A DNA stretch of 64,000 nt from a virus, in the IMG/VR virus record IMGVR_UViG_3300045988_159115. One strand, 5' to 3'. Made by a program: the position numbers and the translations under genes. The notes beneath the pieces were generated by a model. It saw nothing but the letters and a program-made list of their open reading frames with translations, had not been told where the DNA came from and searched no databases. Below, in pieces: positions 38,819-54,626 of the stretch (position 1 is its first letter; each line of letters starts with the position of its first letter).

Positions 38819-38854
38819 TTCTATTTGATCTATAATCAATACTGATTATAGTTA

Positions 38855-38862
38855 TATATTAT
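38855..38862 (+). promoter_or_regulatory. Phage promoter-like motif TATATTAT(A)
   Basis: TAGTTATATATTATATATG, 55 nt before ATG 38917. Confidence 0.5.
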
Positions 38863-38916
38863 ATATGTGAGCGCAATTAGGATGATGGCTGTAATGTGAA
38901 AAGGAGGTATACTTAT

Positions 38917-39096
38917 ATGCATATAAGTTACAACCCTTTAACAGCGCTCACATATAAGGCTCTGAATCCTGGAATTTGGGTAGACTCAACCTCTCCCATT
39001 GAATGGATTCAGAATGATTCTCAGTATACTATTAGCGTCCGAAAGACCGTTGACGTTACTGAGGATCCGGCTACCGTCACCGTTATTGACGGATAA
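38917..39096 (+). CDS. Hypothetical small protein (59 aa)
   Basis: AAAGGAGG SD. Downstream of promoter motif 38855-38862. Terminator follows. Confidence 0.55.
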   Translation: MHISYNPLTALTYKALNPGIWVDSTSPIEWIQNDSQYTISVRKTVDVTEDPATVTVIDG

Positions 39097-39102
39097 CTAA
39101 AC

Positions 39103-47860: not shown

Positions 47861-47985
47861 TTATGGTTATCCCCTTTCATGATAATAATACTAAGTCTTT
47901 AGTATGATTAGCTATTTGTTTTCAGAGGGGTTTCTTAGGAAAGCACAATGAATTAACGATTTTATTCAAAGAAAGGAGAAACGTA

Positions 47986-48477
47986 ATGAGTAGTAAACTG
48001 GAAGAAGCTTTTATGGAAGCTTACAAAGAAAATCTGATTCCAGCCGATATGGTAATGGAAGCATTTGATGGAATTAAAGCAGCAATCCATAACCATAAAG
48101 AAGAGAAAGCTGCAAATAAATCTGGTAATGATCCGAAACTTGCGGATAAGATTTATAAGAAGCTTTCTCCTTATCTTCCGAGCAATTGGAAGAAATTTTC
48201 TATTAGCGTAGCAGATCATAAGGAAGACCCAAATAAATATGGCGTTCTTATGATGATTACAGACAGCACTGGCAAAACCAGTGATTGGACAAAACTGAAA
48301 TGTGCTGACCGTCCTGAGGCGACTCGTGCTATGATGAACTGTGCCAATCTTCTGCAGAAGCATCAGAAAGGATTTGATGGTACTTCATTTGAATGCAGTG
48401 GAGTTTCTCTCACATTTACGCAAGAGTCTGGAGTTCGTCAGTATAAGTTTTCTTATAAGAAAAAGAAGTCAGAATAA
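47986..48477 (+). CDS. Hypothetical protein (163 aa)
   Basis: GAAAGGAGA SD. Terminator at 48484-48528. Confidence 0.7.
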   Translation: MSSKLEEAFMEAYKENLIPADMVMEAFDGIKAAIHNHKEEKAANKSGNDPKLADKIYKKLSPYLPSNWKKFSISVADHKEDPNKYGVLMMITDSTGKTSDWTKLKCADRPEATRAMMNCANLLQKHQKGFDGTSFECSGVSLTFTQESGVRQYKFSYKKKKSE

Positions 48478-48483
48478 AAAATA

Positions 48484-48528
48484 AAAAAAAGATAGTAACC
48501 AATTTGCATTTGAGTTACTATCTTTTTT
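48484..48528. terminator. Bidirectional terminator
   Basis: A-run, then GATAGTAAC pairing with GTTACTATC, then a T-run. Serves the 47986 gene on the plus strand and the ORF-less unit on the minus strand. Confidence 0.75.
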
Positions 48529-48721
48529 GCTTCCAAAGAGAAGTGATTGAACTGATCCAGGCATAACACTTGTGTTCCATCCTCACCTCATCACTACTGT
48601 GAGAGGTATGAGCCGCGATATACTCTTTTCTTTTCCTTCATCATTATTAATGAAGGCAGCACCACGCCTATCATGAACACGTCGGTTTAACCCGGAAGTT
48701 CAATCACTTCTCTTTGGAAGC
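48529..48721 (-). ncRNA. Candidate structured ncRNA (or MITE-like inverted-repeat element)
   Basis: A perfect 25-bp inverted repeat (48529-48553 / 48697-48721) encloses about 143 nt with internal hairpins such as CCTTCAT..ATGAAGG. No SD-led ORF. On the minus strand it lies between promoter motif 48767-48774 and the terminator at 48484-48528. Confidence 0.4.
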
Positions 48722-48766
48722 GAATTAATTATAAGTACTTATGATACTTACTATTTATTCACATAT

Positions 48767-48774
48767 ATAATATA
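48767..48774 (-). promoter_or_regulatory. Phage promoter-like motif TATATTAT(A) driving an ORF-less unit
   Basis: The minus strand reads TATAATGATATATTATATATG. Lies between the terminator at 48806-48840 and the inverted-repeat element at 48529-48721. Confidence 0.5.
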
Positions 48775-48805
48775 TCATTATAATTTAAGGCTTTATCGTT
48801 AAAAT

Positions 48806-48840
48806 ACCACGGATGTACTCCGAAGAAATACATCCGTGGT
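48806..48840 (-). terminator. Rho-independent terminator
   Basis: ACCACGGATGTA pairs with TACATCCGTGGT. ATTTTAA follows on the minus strand. Confidence 0.7.
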
Positions 48841-48938
48841 TATACACAGAAACGCTTTGATAACAAAATGTTTAGATAAAATCCATTATAAGCGAATAAA
48901 GTAAGTATATTAATCTAGTCCGTTATACTAGAAGAATA

Positions 48939-49241
48939 TCAAGTCTGTAAAGTCCAAGTTGCAGTGCTTAGATCGGTAATCGTTGACGCACATCGTCTTA
49001 TTAATGTTTTATTACGATCGTCGGCGATAAAAATCTGGAAAGCCGTACCGTCGGTGTTAGTAAAACACGCTCCATTTCCGACGCCAAAATTCTTATTAAG
49101 CTCATTATCTTTAGGCAGCCAAGTGTAACACCATCCTTTTGGTAGATCCGTAAGAGAATCATTTGGACATACGTTTGGATAATTATCAATATTCAATTTT
49201 ATGTCTTCATTTGAAGTTCTAAGCATAACCGATTTACTCAT
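48939..49241 (-). CDS. Hypothetical protein (100 aa)
   Basis: ATG 49241 has CGAGG upstream. The track start 49274 abuts the palindrome. AT-rich cassette gene. Confidence 0.5.
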   Translation of the reverse strand: MSKSVMLRTSNEDIKLNIDNYPNVCPNDSLTDLPKGWCYTWLPKDNELNKNFGVGNGACFTNTDGTAFQIFIADDRNKTLIRRCASTITDLSTATWTLQT

Positions 49242-49275
49242 TTTTTGATACCTCGGGCTTAGTACCTTCATCATC

Positions 49276-49304
49276 CTAACATATAATCAAAGATTATATG
49301 TTAG
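49276..49304. promoter_or_regulatory. Perfect 13-3-13 palindrome CTAACATATAATC AAA GATTATATGTTAG (operator candidate)
   Basis: Read directly from the sequence. Contains TATAAT. Sits 35 nt upstream of ATG 49241 on the minus strand. Confidence 0.5.
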
Positions 49305-49495
49305 CAAAAACGAGCCCAAAACTATTCAAATCAGGTAGTTTTGGGCTCGTTACTGCGGCTCTTTTGCCTAGCAAGAATTCAGACAAAATGAATTCAAATG
49401 CTAGGCGTGTAGCGATAGTTATGATGATAAAATATTGTTAGTTTCGTTCAATAAAGAACGTAGCTACGTTGAATAATATTCGTTGCCGAATATTA

Positions 49496-49524
49496 CTAAC
49501 ATATAAGCTTTGCTTATATGTTAG
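49496..49524. promoter_or_regulatory. Perfect 13-3-13 palindrome CTAACATATAAGC TTT GCTTATATGTTAG (operator candidate)
   Basis: Read directly from the sequence. Mirror copy of 49276-49304, and both are followed outward by GGATG. Sits 29 nt upstream of ATG 49553. Confidence 0.5.
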
Positions 49525-49552
49525 GATGGTGCATGCTATGGAGGTTTATTCC

Positions 49553-49951
49553 ATGAGCATTGCAACTGGTGATAAAAAAATTAGCTTGAGAGTAGGCGGA
49601 AAGGACCTAGCTCTAAACGATGGATTTCCATTATCAAATCCAGAAGATTTTAAGCATACACAACTTGAATCTAGAATAACTGATAGTTTATATGATAATG
49701 AAAAAACTCAATATCGACCAACATTTTCTACAAACGAGCTACATGATAATTTACTTGAATTTGAAAATTCACGGACTAACGTAATATGCGGCGTTGGTAT
49801 CGGAACAAGCGGAACCAATCACGGTATTTATAGTTCGTCTTGTCAAAGAGACTGCCCGAATGATGGTTGGCTTATACGAGCAACAGATACTGGATCAGTA
49901 TACATCTACGGAAAACTTATCAGAGATTCAAAAGGTAATTGGTATATATAA
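49553..49951 (+). CDS. Hypothetical protein (132 aa)
   Basis: ATG 49553 lies 8 nt after GGAGG. The track start is TTG 49469. Terminator follows. Confidence 0.55.
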   Translation: MSIATGDKKISLRVGGKDLALNDGFPLSNPEDFKHTQLESRITDSLYDNEKTQYRPTFSTNELHDNLLEFENSRTNVICGVGIGTSGTNHGIYSSSCQRDCPNDGWLIRATDTGSVYIYGKLIRDSKGNWYI

Positions 49952-49953
49952 TA

Positions 49954-50004
49954 AAAAGAAGCTACCTGCATTTCTTAATTGGATTTGCAGGTAGCTTCTT
50001 TTTT
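49954..50004. terminator. Bidirectional terminator
   Basis: AAAAGAAGCTACCTGCA pairs with TGCAGGTAGCTTCTTTT. Confidence 0.8.
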
Positions 50005-50542
50005 ACTCTTTGATCTGTTCGAGGGGCTTCACGTTATCGTTGATGTAGGTTGCAAACCGATAATTGAGACCAGTCTTTTCATCATGACGATAATTCGGGA
50101 AGGTATCAATCATCATCCACCAATTCTTTTTCTGATGCAGATTCGGGAAGAATGCATCTGCATCAGGGGCTTCTTTATCAATGTAGGTCACATATGCTGT
50201 GCTACAATAGTCAATGAGTTCGTTATATAAACTATCTCCTCCAATCAGGTATACTTCCTCAGGAGGGTACATAGAAATGAGATCTTTTAATTCTTCCATG
50301 GTATTCACAATGATTGCATCTTTGGAATCCACATGGTAGTTTTTATCGTGAGTCAAAATGATATTGACTCGTTTTGCAAGAGGCTTCTTGAACGGGAAAG
50401 ATTCAAAGGTCTTTCGACCCATTACAACAACGTGTCCCATTGTCAACTCTTTGAATCTAGCCATGTCATCCTTGATGTGGAAAAGAAGCTTATTATTCTT
50501 GCCAATTCCCCAGTTATTACTGACGGCAACAATAGCTCGCAT
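50003..50542 (-). CDS. folA: Dihydrofolate reductase
   Basis: MRAIVAVSNNWGIGKNNKLLFHIKDDMARFKELTMGHVVVMGRKTFESF is the classical DHFR N-terminus. Start taken at the internal ATG with a GAAGGA SD. Confidence 0.85.
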   Translation of the reverse strand: MRAIVAVSNNWGIGKNNKLLFHIKDDMARFKELTMGHVVVMGRKTFESFPFKKPLAKRVNIILTHDKNYHVDSKDAIIVNTMEELKDLISMYPPEEVYLIGGDSLYNELIDYCSTAYVTYIDKEAPDADAFFPNLHQKKNWWMMIDTFPNYRHDEKTGLNYRFATYINDNVKPLEQIKE

Positions 50543-50617
50543 TGGTATCACCAGTCCTTCCATTTTAATAGATAATTTCTAGGGGTCACTTAGCTAAGTG
50601 TCTGAGTTGATATAAAT

Positions 50618-52990: not shown

Positions 52991-53704
52991 ATGCCGATTC
53001 TTACCAAATCACAAGAAGCAGGTTTCATGGATTTCTGTGATAAAATGCGGAATCCGGAAGCAATGGATCAAGTTACATATCATGAAATCGTTTATCCTTT
53101 TAACATGAATATGTGTATCCAGATGTTCCGTGACAATAATCCATTCTTTAATATCTATCCAAGCTATTCGTTTGGCGAAGATACGATTTGTGCGTATCTG
53201 GCATTTGCCGCTTGCACGGATTCTGAATTTGATCTGTGCATTATGGCAAATACTGATAAAGACTACAATCGAATTCTCAATAAGGTATATTACTTCGTAA
53301 AGAAGTCTCGGTTCTCGCTGATCACAAAGCTTCTTGCATGTTCTCGTCTTGCTAAGAAGTTTTATATTGGGAATGCACGATATGTGTATATTGCCCAGTA
53401 TGAGAGAACCTTTGATCCCGACGACAACTGTTTTGTTGGATGGGTTCATCCGAGGGTAACTGGCGGTACGATTGATGAGAATCGTCCTCATGCATATGGA
53501 ACGCATGTCATCAAGAGCAGAATGCATGATATGAGAACTCATACCATTATTTCTGGTAAAGATGCGTATGATGTTCTTAAGACTCAGATTGGTAGCTATC
53601 TCATGTACTATAACGTGATTGATGCTGATCTGGATTCTTGTAAGGAAGATACTCACAAAACCGCTGGAGAATATTTTAAGAACAGGGAGAAAAATAATGA
53701 GTAA
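52991..53704 (+). CDS. Hypothetical protein (237 aa) translationally coupled to the ThyA-like gene
   Basis: AAAGGAGGA SD. Its 3' end overlaps the ThyA-like start by 8 nt. Confidence 0.65.
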   Translation: MPILTKSQEAGFMDFCDKMRNPEAMDQVTYHEIVYPFNMNMCIQMFRDNNPFFNIYPSYSFGEDTICAYLAFAACTDSEFDLCIMANTDKDYNRILNKVYYFVKKSRFSLITKLLACSRLAKKFYIGNARYVYIAQYERTFDPDDNCFVGWVHPRVTGGTIDENRPHAYGTHVIKSRMHDMRTHTIISGKDAYDVLKTQIGSYLMYYNVIDADLDSCKEDTHKTAGEYFKNREKNNE

Positions 53705-54626
53705 AGCAGATGTTATTTTCAAGGACAATGTAGAGCAGATCCTTTGCATGGGAAATTATGAAGATCATTCTCTTCGTTGGTATCCGACTCGAGCAATGTG
53801 GGCGGATACGAAACTTACTGCTTGCACTGCAAAAGCATTCGGTATCGTGAATGAGTATGATCTTCGGGAAGAGTTCCCTGCAATCACTTTCCGAAAGACT
53901 GGTCTGAAGTCTTGCATGGATGAGATTCTTTGGATCTATCAGAAGAAGAGCAATAACATCCATGATCTGAAATCTCATATCTGGGATTCTTGGGCAGATG
54001 CTTCTGGTTCCATTGGTAAGGCATATGGCTATCAGATTGGTCAGAAGTATAAGCACCATAAAGCCCATATGGATATCAACGGATGCTATCCGGATGGAAC
54101 TGTTTTTGCAAAGAATGGCAATCCTTATGTGATGCTGGATCAGATGGATGCTGTGCTGTATGATCTTCAGCACGATCCTTGGTCCCGTCGTATCATGACA
54201 AATACGTACTGCTTCGAGGACCTTTCTGAGATGGGTCTGTATCCTTGTGCATATTCTACTACGTGGAATGTGACCAAGGAAGACGGTTATGAGAAGCCGG
54301 TTCTGAATCTGCTTTTGAATCAGAGAAGCAATGACTATATGGTTGCAAACAACTGGAATACTGCACAGTACGCAATCCTCTTAATGATGGTTGCACAGGT
54401 ATGTGACATGGTTCCTGGTCGTTTGACTCATGTCATTGCAGATGCCCACATCTATGATCGTCATCGTGAGATGATTGAGAGTATGATTCGTCGTCCGATG
54501 TATCCTGCTCCGAAGGTTAGTCTGGATCCTTCCATTAAAGATTTCTACAAGTTCACTACAGATAGCCTGATTGTGGAAAATTATCAGGCTGGTGAGCAAA
54601 TCAAAAATATCCCTGTAGCTGTATAA
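53697..54626 (+). CDS. thyA: Thymidylate synthase family enzyme (ThyA or dUMP hydroxymethylase)
   Basis: FPAITFRKTGLKSCMDEILWIYQKKSN..IWDSWA, SRRIMT, YPCAYS (catalytic Cys), NQRSNDYMVANNWNTAQYA (Asn as in dUMP-specific enzymes), ADAHIYDRH. Confidence 0.8.
   Translation: MSKADVIFKDNVEQILCMGNYEDHSLRWYPTRAMWADTKLTACTAKAFGIVNEYDLREEFPAITFRKTGLKSCMDEILWIYQKKSNNIHDLKSHIWDSWADASGSIGKAYGYQIGQKYKHHKAHMDINGCYPDGTVFAKNGNPYVMLDQMDAVLYDLQHDPWSRRIMTNTYCFEDLSEMGLYPCAYSTTWNVTKEDGYEKPVLNLLLNQRSNDYMVANNWNTAQYAILLMMVAQVCDMVPGRLTHVIADAHIYDRHREMIESMIRRPMYPAPKVSLDPSIKDFYKFTTDSLIVENYQAGEQIKNIPVAV

What the first reader, a model, noticed from the sequence alone, without database searches (positions are those of the whole stretch)
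48484..48774. ORF-less transcription unit with a perfect 25-bp closing stem: structured ncRNA or MITE
Read on the minus strand, the layout is as follows:
- the terminator of the upstream gene (48806-48840);
- a full-consensus promoter motif (48767-48774, TAATGATATATTATAT);
- about 45 nt of leader;
- an element whose ends, 48697-48721 and 48529-48553, are perfect reverse complements (GCTTCCAAAGAGAAGTGATTGAACT-type arms);
- about 143 nt of enclosed sequence with further hairpins (CCTTCAT..ATGAAGG and ACCTC..GAGGT);
- a terminator with a T-run (48528-48484).

No ORF with a ribosome-binding site fits. The longest ATG ORF is 25 codons and has no SD.

A 25-bp RNA duplex would be an RNase III substrate, so the inner RNA may be excised. 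Alternatively the arms are terminal inverted repeats of a miniature mobile element. I see no target-site duplication.

I could not match it to any RNA family from memory. It is not a tRNA, tmRNA or hammerhead.
Basis: seen in the sequence. Interest (0 to 1): 0.72.

Follow-up and report, generated by a model that had tools for sequence, protein, structure and literature searches.

The report
Early structured noncoding RNA of gut jumbo phage
This is a real, protein-free gene for a tightly folded RNA of about 280 bases, probably made in the first minutes of infection by a giant phage of the human gut. It matches no known RNA family, and its function is still unknown.

Summary
A perfect 25-bp inverted repeat (48697-48721 / 48529-48553) encloses 143 nt. 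It lies between a phage promoter and a hairpin-plus-T-run terminator.

- **Phage and promoter.** The window comes from an uncultured ~260-kb human-gut jumbo phage distantly related to Bacillus AR9/PBS1 and Staphylococcus MarsHill. The promoter fits their virion-RNA-polymerase early consensus (TATATTAT-6N-G), which puts +1 at G48760.
- **Transcript.** The predicted ~280-nt minus-strand RNA has three parts: a 39-nt 5' hairpin, a 193-nt domain (25+7-bp stem closing a three-way junction) and the terminator.
- **Evidence for a functional RNA.** In 36 distinct variants from gut metagenomes, 99.2% of pair cells stay paired. Two pairs show compensatory changes. G·U variants outnumber A·C variants 27 to 12 positions, and neutral sites nearby show no such bias.
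- **Conservation.** The promoter, outer stem, P3 and an A-rich internal loop are about as conserved as codon positions 1-2. Hairpin loops vary about as much as, or more than, third codon positions.
- **Rejected.** Every small ORF is broken by indels, stop codons or frameshifts. No second copy was found in the scans of viral contigs or of 185,579 reference genomes, so it is not a MITE. Rfam gives no match.

The function is inferred, not shown: probably a stable, trans-acting, protein-binding early RNA.

The parts
48806..48840 (-). Terminator-like hairpin of the upstream cassette gene (111-aa ORF 48939-49274). This is context, not part of the conserved unit.
   Evidence: It has a perfect 12-bp stem. 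This flank is replaced by unrelated sequence in other strains, and conservation starts only at the promoter.
48765..48783 (-). Early (virion RNA polymerase type) promoter TTATAATGATATATTATAT. The core TATATTAT lies at 48774-48767.
   Evidence: It matches the AR9 early consensus AAATATATATTAT-(6N)-G+1 (PMC5312081) and the MarsHill TATATTAT motif. Eleven intergenic copies of ATATATTAT lie in the window, most 50-150 nt upstream of ORFs, each with a purine at the +1 position. Nucleotide diversity is 0.010, against 0.093 at neighbouring third codon positions.
48760..48760 (-). Predicted transcription start (G, 6 nt after TATATTAT).
   Evidence: Inferred from the AR9 rule TATATTAT-(6N)-G+1 applied to the sequence. 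It has not been shown experimentally.
48722..48760 (-). 5' leader hairpin (15 pairs) that starts at +1 and abuts the long stem with no linker.
   Evidence: It appears in the MFE and consensus folds. All cells are paired in 36 variants, and the only variation is to G·U at 3 pairs. The loop is variable (pi 0.22).
48697..48721 (-). P1, 5' arm of the 25-bp closing stem (GCUUCCAAAGAGAAGUGAUUGAACU).
   Evidence: Located. The outer 15 bp are almost invariant (pi 0.007). The inner 10 bp vary at the neutral rate (pi 0.10) but stay paired, through one G-C<->A-U compensatory pair and several G·U pairs.
48529..48553 (-). P1, 3' arm of the closing stem.
   Evidence: Same evidence as for the 5' arm.
48690..48696 (-). 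P1 extension, 5' strand (UCCGGGU). It pairs with 48556-48562 after a 2-nt bulge (48554-48555) and includes G·U pairs.
   Evidence: Seen. The G·U pairs make this helix strand-specific.
48556..48562 (-). P1 extension, 3' strand (GCCUGGA).
   Evidence: Seen.
48563..48689 (-). Core: a three-way junction. P2 is 48675-48680 / 48572-48577. P3 is 48660-48669 / 48611-48620, with three invariant G·U pairs. The P4 hairpin is 48635-48656. The A-rich internal loop is 48621-48634. P5 is 48578-48610, where CAUACCUC pairs with GAGGAUG.
   Evidence: The helices come from the consensus fold and helix table. Diversity is 0.014 for P3, 0.004 for the A-rich loop and 0.000 for GAGGAUG, but 0.07-0.16 for the P4 and P5 hairpin tips. 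One compensatory pair, C-G<->U-A, lies in P4.
48518..48580 (-). Non-conserved 20-codon ORF (MEHKCYAWISSITSLWKQKR) inside the 3' half. It is not a gene.
   Evidence: Codon 8 is a stop in 3 of 36 variants (both TAG and TGA). The C-terminus is frameshifted to 42-47 aa in 11 of 36 variants by A-run length changes.
48484..48528 (.). Bidirectional intrinsic terminator: an A6 + 9-bp + 3-bp hairpin, flanked by a U-rich run that continues to about 48471 on the minus strand.
   Evidence: Seen. Paired positions have pi 0.018. The loop is variable and even inverted in some strains. The stop codon of the convergent 163-aa gene lies 7 nt away.

Best explanation
The region is a stand-alone gene for a highly structured noncoding RNA of about 280 nt.

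**The phage.** It belongs to an uncultured ~260-kb human-gut jumbo phage, a distant relative of Bacillus AR9/PBS1 and Staphylococcus MarsHill.

**Shown by sequence and comparison:**
- The unit reads on the minus strand.
- It begins at a consensus copy of the phage's recurring TATATTAT-6N-purine promoter.
- It ends at a bidirectional intrinsic terminator.
- It encodes no protein.
- Its secondary structure is maintained by selection at the RNA level.

**Inferred from AR9 biology:** the promoter is the early class read by the injected virion RNA polymerase. The RNA would therefore be made within minutes of infection, without any new protein synthesis.

**Inferred from the anatomy:**
- Both ends are locked in hairpins. 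A 5' hairpin starts at +1 and a terminator hairpin sits at the 3' end. The 25+7-bp stem clamps the core. The molecule should therefore be long-lived, given the 5'-end-dependent RNA decay typical of Bacillota.
- The constrained parts are the outer 15 bp of the stem, helix P3 with its invariant G·U pairs, the 14-15-nt purine-rich internal loop, and the junction.
- The hairpin loops vary about as much as, or more than, third codon positions.
- This pattern fits an RNA that works in trans by binding a protein (or another macromolecule) at the junction/A-rich loop. The outer stem would serve as a sequence-specific double-stranded recognition or processing site, for example for RNase III.

The most likely role is in early host take-over or counter-defence. 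The target is unknown.
For: **Real structure**
- The IR is perfect over 25 bp and unique in the window.
- The fold has z = -12.6.

**Promoter class**
- The sequence matches AR9 AAATATATATTAT-(6N)-G+1 and MarsHill TATATTAT.
- The motif recurs upstream of ORFs in the window with a purine at the +1 position.
- Promoter pi is 0.010, against 0.093 at neutral sites.
- The phage carries a split RNAP beta subunit gene (PHROG hit). Its closest cultured relatives by major capsid protein are MarsHill-like and AR9/PBS1 phages.
- AR9 RNA polymerases stop at predicted intrinsic terminators.

**RNA-level selection on the minus strand**
- Across 36 distinct variants, 99.2% of pair cells are paired, against 37-50% when the partners are slid.
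- Two pairs show G·U intermediates and full compensation.
- 27 pair positions carry G·U variants (98 cells, up to 14 of 36 sequences). 12 carry A·C variants (16 cells, never more than 3 of 36). Binomial p = 0.024; Mann-Whitney p = 0.044.
- The same transition classes are balanced 31:30 at third codon positions of the neighbouring gene.
- The minus strand folds more stably than the plus strand in 36 of 36 variants, by 12.4 kcal/mol on average.

**Non-coding**
- 1-nt indels occur inside the core.
- The only SD-preceded ORF shows nonsense and frameshift variants.

**Always present**
- Every assembly that carries the neighbouring gene and enough flank has the unit. This includes strains in which DHFR directly abuts it.

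**Constraint map:**
Against: - No transcript data were available, so the promoter, TSS, termination and stability are all predictions.
- All 36 variants belong to one phage species (88-100% identical). Only two pairs show true covariation. The site-level contrast with neutral sites is weak on its own (Fisher p = 0.096).
- Overall constraint on the domain is moderate (pi 0.052, against 0.093 at neutral sites).
- A relative with 60% identity in the flanking 680-aa protein has no such unit at the syntenic position. The RNA is therefore young or dispensable at that evolutionary distance.
- No partner protein was identified. The neighbouring ORFan gave a poor model and no fold match.
- The trans-acting, protein-binding role and any RNase III step are inference only.
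- Near-invariance of both outer arms could also reflect a DNA-level site.
Confidence: 0.55

Rival explanations
1. Cis-acting RNA element. The structured transcript would modify the transcribing polymerase or act as an attenuator (as the put RNAs of HK022 or the Bacillus EAR element do). Read-through past the terminator would then be regulated. It would produce antisense RNA across the convergent 163-aa gene and possibly reach the 680-aa gene on the same strand.
For: - The element lies immediately downstream of a strong promoter and immediately upstream of a terminator.
- The next genes on the minus strand (680 aa, then head genes) lie beyond the convergent gene.
- The promoter and terminator are the most conserved parts.
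Against: - The 680-aa gene has its own late-type motif, AACA-6N-TA.
- Read-through would have to cross 500 nt antisense to a conserved gene.
- The terminator is strong and shared with the convergent gene.
- Known put and EAR RNAs are much smaller or have different architectures, and Rfam gives no match.
Confidence: 0.1
2. DNA-level element. The two 25-bp arms would be paired binding sites, or a cruciform, for a phage DNA-binding, recombination or replication protein. Alternatively they mark the fixed boundary of the hypervariable cassette region. On this reading, the RNA fold is a by-product.
For: - The outer 15 bp of both arms are nearly invariant (pi 0.007).
- The unit sits exactly at the edge of a region whose gene content differs between strains.
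- Inverted repeats in this phage do recombine: the terminator loop is flipped in some strains.
Against: - Variation in the stems is biased to G·U (minus-strand sense) and against A·C. A DNA duplex or cruciform would not distinguish these two.
- Inner helices with obligatory G·U pairs are conserved.
- The minus strand is more stable in 36 of 36 variants.
- A dedicated, conserved promoter points into the element.
- The 143-nt core is never found inverted, although the arms would allow it.
Confidence: 0.07
3. mRNA for a 20-aa peptide (MEHKCYAWISSITSLWKQKR). Its SD and AUG would be sequestered by the fold, like a type I toxin mRNA activated by processing.
For: - GAGGUGAGG-AUG is invariant and paired with CAUACCUC.
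- Long-range 5'-3' pairing of this kind resembles hok/aapA1-type inert toxin mRNAs (general knowledge).
Against: - Codon 8 is a stop in 3 of 36 variants, arising by two different mutations.
- The C-terminus is frameshifted to 42-47 aa in 11 of 36 variants.
- The peptide has no membrane-spanning hydrophobic stretch.
- Substitution density in the 3' arm equals that in the non-coding 5' arm, and all changes are explained by G·U tolerance.
- No antisense promoter is evident.
Confidence: 0.03
4. Miniature inverted-repeat transposable element (Correia/MITE-like) that happens to sit between a promoter and a terminator.
For: It has 25-28-bp terminal inverted repeats and a total length of about 195 bp, which is MITE-like.
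Against: - No second copy appears in the window even at 3 mismatches.
- An exact-match scan of IMG/VR viral contigs found only this locus.
- A 22-nt arm pattern with one degenerate position, scanned across 185,579 reference genomes, gave one hit: a single chance match inside an Empedobacter gene, with no partner arm.
- There is no target-site duplication.
- The position is fixed in every strain.
- The interior is under RNA-structure selection.
Confidence: 0.02
5. Template or primer RNA of a retron-like reverse transcriptase encoded elsewhere in the phage (msr-msd-like, with the arms acting as a1/a2).
For: - Long inverted repeats close a hairpin-rich RNA.
- MarsHill-like relatives encode a retron-like RT.
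Against: - No RT or other partner was found among about 50 proteins of the 64-kb window.
- The unit has its own terminator and is not followed by a gene.
- Retron ncRNAs are co-transcribed with their RT (general knowledge).
- About 200 kb of the genome could not be inspected.
Confidence: 0.03

Closest known systems
Early transcription units of AR9/PBS1- and MarsHill-type jumbo phages (virion RNA polymerase promoters)
   Same: - The promoter sequence matches TATATTAT-(6N)-purine.
- The motif recurs upstream of many genes.
- Units end at intrinsic terminators.
- A late-type ACA-6N-TA motif lies upstream of structural genes.
   Different: - The AR9 paper does not mention any noncoding or small RNA; its early promoters are described as lying upstream of genes. 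This unit encodes no protein.
- Relatedness is remote, with major capsid protein identity of 23-24%.
phi29-family packaging RNA (pRNA, Rfam RF00044)
   Same: - It is an RNA of a phage infecting Bacillota.
- It is roughly 170-200 nt long.
- It is made from an early promoter.
- A helix formed by the 5' and 3' ends closes a three-way-junction core.
   Different: - Rfam gives no match even at E <= 10.
- This phage has a conventional large terminase.
- The stem is a much longer perfect duplex, and no loop-loop complementarity was noted.
- The resemblance is in shape only.
Adenovirus VA RNA I / EBV EBERs (viral structured decoy RNAs)
   Same: - They are abundant, ORF-less viral RNAs of about 160-170 nt.
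- A terminal stem formed by the two ends surrounds a conserved central domain.
- They act by binding host double-strand-RNA-binding proteins.
- This is the closest functional analogy for the proposed mode of action.
   Different: - They are eukaryotic viral RNAs made by Pol III, with no sequence or family relationship to this RNA.
- No bacterial target is known for the phage RNA. The analogy is a hypothesis, not a finding.
RNase III processing hairpins in phage early RNAs (T7 R0.3-R1.3; Bacillus phage SP82)
   Same: It is an early phage transcript containing more than two helical turns of duplex RNA, which is the minimal RNase III substrate (general knowledge).
   Different: - Those sites lie between genes of polycistronic mRNAs and are about 60 nt long, with internal loops.
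- Here the duplex closes a 143-nt conserved core in a unit with no genes.
- Cleavage has not been tested.
Correia/NEMIS and other bacterial MITEs
   Same: It has terminal inverted repeats of about 26 bp, is 100-200 bp long, is transcribed, and can form an RNase III-sensitive hairpin.
   Different: It has no other detected copy, no target-site duplication and a fixed position.
Uncharacterised ncRNAs reported from jumbo phages (phiKZ, PA5oct)
   Same: They are ORF-less transcripts of jumbo phages with unknown roles.
   Different: - No sequence relationship was detected: blastn against 50,697 phage genomes found nothing.
- Those phages infect Pseudomonas and use different promoters.

Membership tests
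Any curated RNA family (Rfam 15: 6S, Y RNA/YrlA, pRNA, tmRNA, RNase P, SRP, ribozymes, riboswitches, HEARO, ROOL/GOLLD etc.) | Score at or above the family's gathering threshold with the covariance model. | tested here: not met
   There are 0 matches at gathering score in the whole 64-kb window. With E <= 10 on 48300-49000, only chance-level hits to snoRNA, miRNA or terminator-like models appear, all far below threshold. ARAGORN finds no tRNA or tmRNA.
AR9-type early (virion RNAP) transcription unit | Promoter matching (A)ATATATATTAT-(6N)-G/A(+1). | tested here: met
   The sequence reads GATATATTAT-ATATGT-G, with +1 at 48760. The motif recurs upstream of ORFs.
AR9-type early (virion RNAP) transcription unit | Transcript appears early and independently of protein synthesis. 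| not testable with these tools
   No expression data are available for this uncultured phage.
MITE / Correia-like element | Terminal inverted repeats. | tested here: met
   The arms are 25 bp perfect, or 28 nt at 96%.
MITE / Correia-like element | Multiple dispersed copies. | tested here: not met
   No second copy appears in the window or in exact-match scans of IMG/VR. A scan of metagenome contigs with a core-helix pattern (not the arms) found only this phage. An arm scan of 185,579 genomes gave no true copy.
MITE / Correia-like element | Target-site duplication flanking the repeats. | tested here: not met
   The flanks AATTAATTC| and |AAAAAAGAT share no duplication.
Type I toxin mRNA / small-protein gene | Conserved intact small ORF (usually hydrophobic) with a ribosome-binding site. 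| tested here: not met
   An SD-like GAGG and an AUG are present. However, the ORF has stop codons in 3 of 36 variants and frameshifted tails in 11 of 36, and it has no transmembrane-length hydrophobic segment.
Retron ncRNA (msr-msd) | Adjacent, co-transcribed reverse transcriptase. | tested here: not met
   The unit ends in its own terminator and the next gene is convergent. No RT domain was found in about 50 window proteins. The rest of the genome was not seen.
Retron ncRNA (msr-msd) | a1/a2 inverted repeats pairing the 5' and 3' ends. | tested here: met
   The stem of 25+7 bp meets this only superficially. It is far longer than typical a1/a2.
6S RNA | Rod with irregular closing and internal stems around a large open central bubble that mimics an open promoter. 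| tested here: not met
   The 6S models give no hit. The closing stem is a perfect A-form duplex, and the centre is a three-way junction, not a bubble.
RNase III substrate | At least ~20 bp of uninterrupted double-stranded RNA. | tested here: met
   The predicted RNA contains a 25-bp perfect helix plus a 7-bp extension.
RNase III substrate | Staggered cleavage with 2-nt 3' overhangs in vivo or in vitro. | not testable with these tools
   This requires an enzyme assay or RNA end mapping.
Structured functional ncRNA (generic) | Base pairs maintained by compensatory or wobble changes beyond what controls give. | tested here: met
   99.2% of cells are paired, against 37-50% when slid. Two compensatory pairs are present. 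The G·U to A·C ratio is 27:12 positions, against 31:30 for the same transitions at neutral sites. Caveat: the alignment covers a single species.

The most novel reading that the evidence does not exclude
The RNA is an RNA-based host-takeover or counter-defence factor, made by the injected virion polymerase before any phage protein exists. On this reading it is a bacterial-virus counterpart of adenovirus VA RNA. Its invariant duplex and A-rich junction would trap a host RNA-binding enzyme or immune sensor, such as RNase III, an RNA-sensing CBASS cyclase, or another double-strand-RNA or structured-RNA binder. That would protect the first phage transcripts.
Probability: 0.15. Interest if true: 0.8.

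Novelty: new member of a known kind. Interest (0 to 1): 0.45.

Why it matters
- **A gap in jumbo-phage biology.** These phages carry their own transcription machinery, yet almost nothing is known about noncoding RNAs they make. The 2026 review consulted here says only that phiKZ expresses ncRNAs of unknown role. The AR9 transcriptome paper mentions none.
- **What this locus offers.** It is a clean candidate: a dedicated early promoter, no ORF, and structure kept by selection. It is present in every strain sampled, from gut metagenomes of several cohorts (Hadza, Nepal and others).
- **If it acts in trans.** Acting during the protein-free first minutes of infection, it would be an RNA-only early effector. 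That class of phage weapon is so far known mainly from RNA anti-CRISPRs and antitoxin mimics.
- **Practical value.** It gives a defined 193-nt domain, with mapped constrained and free positions, for biochemical pull-downs.
- **Limits.** The host is unknown, the RNA is confined to one phage species, and the function is not established.

Tried and rejected
1. **Rfam.** Gathering mode on the whole window and E <= 10 on the locus found nothing meaningful. ARAGORN found nothing.
2. **Phage genome search.** blastn of the locus against 50,697 phage genomes gave no match.
3. **Search for distant homologues.**
   - Exact and gapped patterns of the arms and of helix P3 were scanned in IMG/VR. The P3 pattern was also scanned in metagenome contigs, and one arm pattern in 185,579 reference genomes.
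   - Only the same phage species turned up, plus three chance hits that the covariance model rejected.
4. **Synteny route.** The neighbouring 163-aa protein is an ORFan. The 680-aa neighbour led to one 60%-identity relative (L028), whose syntenic region has no such unit.
5. **Covariance model R1.** It found no paralogue in the window.
6. **Complementary targets.** A search for sequences complementary to the conserved loops found none in the window.
7. **Coding hypotheses.** The 28-aa GTG ORF is broken by 1-nt indels. The 20-aa SD-preceded ORF is broken by stops and frameshifts.
8. **Partner proteins.** Pfam and PHROG scans of about 50 window proteins found no RT, Ro60, RNase III, Cas or Hfq-like protein.
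9. **Neighbouring ORFan structure.** The AlphaFold model was poor (pLDDT 56.6). Foldseek against PDB and BFVD gave no hit at E <= 0.001. A source's name for it, 'signal recognition particle GTPase', is unsupported.
10. **Mutation bias.** This was considered as an explanation for the G·U excess and rejected, because neutral sites show 31:30.
11. **Recalled resemblances set aside as coincidental.**
    - Hairpin-ribozyme AGAGAAGU: here the sequence is fully paired.
    - Box C RUGAUGA: here it lies inside canonical helices.
    - CsrA or Hfq motifs.
    - CRISPR-repeat mimicry: no arm match in the reference genomes.
Full report
**1. The observation**

Read on the minus strand, the window shows the following features in order:
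- a perfect 12-bp hairpin at 48806-48840;
- the string TAATGATATATTATAT at 48780-48765;
- a perfect 25-bp inverted repeat, 48721-48697 with 48553-48529 (28 nt at 96%), enclosing 143 nt;
- a hairpin at 48528-48485 with 15-nt perfect arms, flanked by an A-run and a T-run.

The arm sequence occurs nowhere else in the 64-kb window, even with three mismatches, and none of 100 shuffles produced a match. The stretch 48760-48480 folds at -118.1 kcal/mol, against -57.8 +/- 4.8 for shuffles (z = -12.6).

**2. The genome**

PHROG and Pfam hits identify the following proteins:
- a split multisubunit RNA polymerase beta subunit;
- major head protein, tail sheath, tail tube and large terminase;
- an SbcC-like nuclease, DNA polymerase and helicase;
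- DHFR and thymidylate synthase.

Near-identical contigs are 250-265 kb long and come from human gut metagenomes, including Hadza and Nepal cohorts. By major capsid protein, the closest cultured phages are the Staphylococcus MarsHill-like and Bacillus AR9/PBS1 jumbo phages, at only 23-24% identity. Ribosome-binding sites of the AAAGGAGG type fit a Bacillota host. That host assignment is an inference.

**3. The promoter**

AR9 early promoters, read by the injected virion RNA polymerase, have the consensus AAATATATATTAT-(6N)-G+1 (PMC5312081). The same TATATTAT core was found upstream of 29 MarsHill genes. The window reads GATATATTAT-ATATGT-G, which places +1 at G48760.

Eleven intergenic copies of ATATATTAT occur in the window. 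Most lie 50-150 nt upstream of an ORF, and each has a purine at the +1 position. The copy at 48760 has no ORF before its terminator. Structural genes and the neighbouring 680-aa gene instead carry an ACA-6N-TA motif like the AR9 late consensus. In AR9, transcription stops strongly at predicted intrinsic terminators. That this unit is expressed early is therefore a well-founded inference, not a measurement.

**4. The RNA**

From +1 the transcript consists of the following parts:
- a 39-nt hairpin (48760-48722) that begins at the first nucleotide;
- with no linker, the 25-bp stem P1, extended by 7 bp after a 2-nt bulge;
- a three-way junction formed by P2 (6 bp), P3 (9 bp, with three G·U pairs) and P5;
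- P3 carries a 14-15-nt purine-rich internal loop and the P4 hairpin;
- in P5, CAUACCUC pairs with GAGGAUG;
- the terminator hairpin and a U-run.

**5. Related sequences and selection**

The neighbouring 163-aa protein is an ORFan. Its cluster is nevertheless seen in hundreds of assemblies. From these I collected 36 distinct versions of the unit, 88-100% identical. Every locus with enough flank has the unit, including strains where DHFR directly abuts it.

Pairing across the 102 pairs of the named structure:
- 99.2% of 3,670 cells are standard pairs, against 37-50% when the partners are slid by 1-3 columns.
- Two pairs show full compensation with G·U intermediates: G-C<->A-U in P1 (10 sequences) and C-G<->U-A in P4 (8 sequences).
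- G·U variants (in the minus-strand sense) occur at 27 pair positions and reach 14 of 36 sequences.
- A·C variants occur at 12 positions and never exceed 3 of 36 sequences (binomial p = 0.024; Mann-Whitney p = 0.044).
- The same two transition classes are balanced, 31:30, at third codon positions of the adjacent gene. Mutation bias is therefore not the cause.
- The direct site-level comparison with those neutral sites is only suggestive (Fisher p = 0.096).
- The minus strand folds more stably than the plus strand in all 36 variants, by 12.4 kcal/mol on average.

These results favour selection on a minus-strand RNA. They argue against a plus-strand RNA or a DNA cruciform.

**6. Constraint map**

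Nucleotide diversity by region:

| Region | pi |
|---|---|
| Neighbouring gene, codon position 3 (neutral reference) | 0.093 |
| Neighbouring gene, codon positions 1 / 2 | 0.010 / 0.005 |
| Promoter | 0.010 |
| Terminator stem | 0.018 |
| Outer 15 bp of P1 | 0.007 |
| Inner 10 bp of P1 (still paired) | 0.102 |
| P3 | 0.014 |
| A-rich internal loop | 0.004 |
| GAGGAUG | 0.000 |
| Loops of the leader, P4, P5 and terminator hairpins | 0.07-0.22 |

The functional centre therefore appears to be the junction, P3 and the A-rich loop, together with the base of the long stem. The hairpin loops are not constrained.

**7. Not coding**

One-nucleotide indels inside the core break every longer frame on both strands. 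The only ORF with an SD-like sequence is MEHKCYAWISSITSLWKQKR. It has a stop at codon 8 in 3 of 36 variants, arising from two different mutations. Its tail is frameshifted to 42-47 aa in 11 of 36 variants.

**8. Not a MITE, not a known family**

No second copy was found (exact-match scans; only the window was searched with mismatches):
- none in the window;
- none in IMG/VR;
- none in metagenome contigs, scanned with the P3 pattern only;
- none in 185,579 reference genomes, where the single 22-nt hit lies inside an Empedobacter coding repeat with no partner arm.

There is no target-site duplication. Rfam gives nothing. A relative with 60% identity in the flanking 680-aa protein lacks the unit at the syntenic position. 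The RNA is therefore lineage-specific.

**9. How it most likely works**

Shown:
- It is a conserved, promoter-to-terminator, ORF-less unit.
- Its minus-strand secondary structure is maintained by selection.

Inferred from AR9 biology:
- It is transcribed early by the virion polymerase.

Inferred from the anatomy and from general knowledge of RNA decay in Bacillota:
- The 5' hairpin at +1 and the 3' terminator hairpin make the RNA stable.
- The sequence-invariant outer stem is a specific double-stranded recognition or processing site, with RNase III as the obvious candidate.
- The conserved junction and A-rich loop form a binding surface for a protein or another macromolecule, so the RNA would act in trans during host take-over.

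I put about 0.85 on 'functional minus-strand ncRNA gene'. I put about 0.55 on the fuller statement (trans-acting, protein-binding early RNA). I put about 0.15 on a decoy or anti-defence role specifically.

The rivals are listed with their evidence in the Rival explanations section. They are a cis-acting antitermination or attenuation element, a DNA-level site, a small-peptide mRNA, a MITE and a retron-like template.

**10. Verdict**

This is a genuine, previously undescribed phage ncRNA. It is a new member of the poorly explored class of jumbo-phage noncoding RNAs. Interest is moderate: the evidence for a functional RNA is good, but the function, host and expression are unknown, and the RNA is confined to one phage species.

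Noticed in passing
window 48841-50002 (between the RNA unit and DHFR), compared with L001, L007-L016, L035-L056: This interval is hypervariable between strains of the same phage. The cassettes differ: 111+160 aa here; 82+171 aa, 101+133 aa, 125+354 aa, 232 aa or 170 aa elsewhere; and none at all in L040 and L047. Conservation resumes exactly at the early promoter of the RNA unit. This is reminiscent of promoter/terminator-mediated cassette shuffling in T4-type phages.
   Followed up: partly
window 48500-48513 (terminator loop); L007, L024, L045 in alignment A4 columns 284-298: In three variants the loop of the bidirectional terminator is the reverse complement of the usual loop (CCAATTTGTATTTGAG versus CTCAAATACAAATTGG). 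The segment has therefore flipped between the hairpin arms. The 143-nt core between the 25-bp arms is never flipped.
   Followed up: partly
L017-L024 and L055-L059 (region corresponding to window 47986-48477): Some strains carry a tandem duplication of the 163-aa ORFan gene (163/162 aa followed by a 161-aa copy). The copy next to the RNA unit is the 161-aa one.
   Followed up: no
window 47986-48477 (+): Some sources name the 163-aa ORFan 'signal recognition particle GTPase'. Nothing supports this: there is no Pfam or PHROG hit, the AlphaFold model has pLDDT 56.6, and Foldseek finds no hit at E <= 0.001.
   Followed up: yes
window about 47905-47925 (-), and upstream of 44167 (-) and 33484 (-): A motif (A)ACA-6N-TA, like the AR9 late-promoter consensus, lies upstream of the 680-aa gene (AACAAATAGCTA), the major head gene (TACATTTGAGTA) and the tail sheath gene (TACATTTATCTA).
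   Followed up: partly
window 38849-39097 (+): A second perfect early-promoter copy (ATATATTAT-ATATGT-G) drives a 59-aa ORF (38918-39097) with a strong SD. The ORF is just too short for the default ORF listing. This unit is a small protein gene, not a second ncRNA.
   Followed up: yes
window 50003-50563 (-) and 53622-54626 (+): The phage encodes DHFR and thymidylate synthase. This suggests thymine-containing DNA, unlike its distant relatives AR9 and PBS1, which use uracil.
   Followed up: no
window 48635-48656 and 48591-48606 (-): The P4 and P5 hairpins resemble each other (CCUUCAUYA..UGAUGAAGG and CCUCUCAC..GUGAUGAGG). This suggests an internal duplication or two similar binding sites. Both contain RUGAUGA strings, but these lie inside ordinary helices.
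   Followed up: no
L028 4188-5304: The 60%-identity relative has three tandem paralogous cassette genes ending in ..IAIGKWK / ..IAIGWWK, the same C-terminal motif as the 82-aa cassette gene of L001. Each is interrupted near its start by an A9-A11 homopolymer. These could be frameshifts, phase variation or assembly errors.
   Followed up: no
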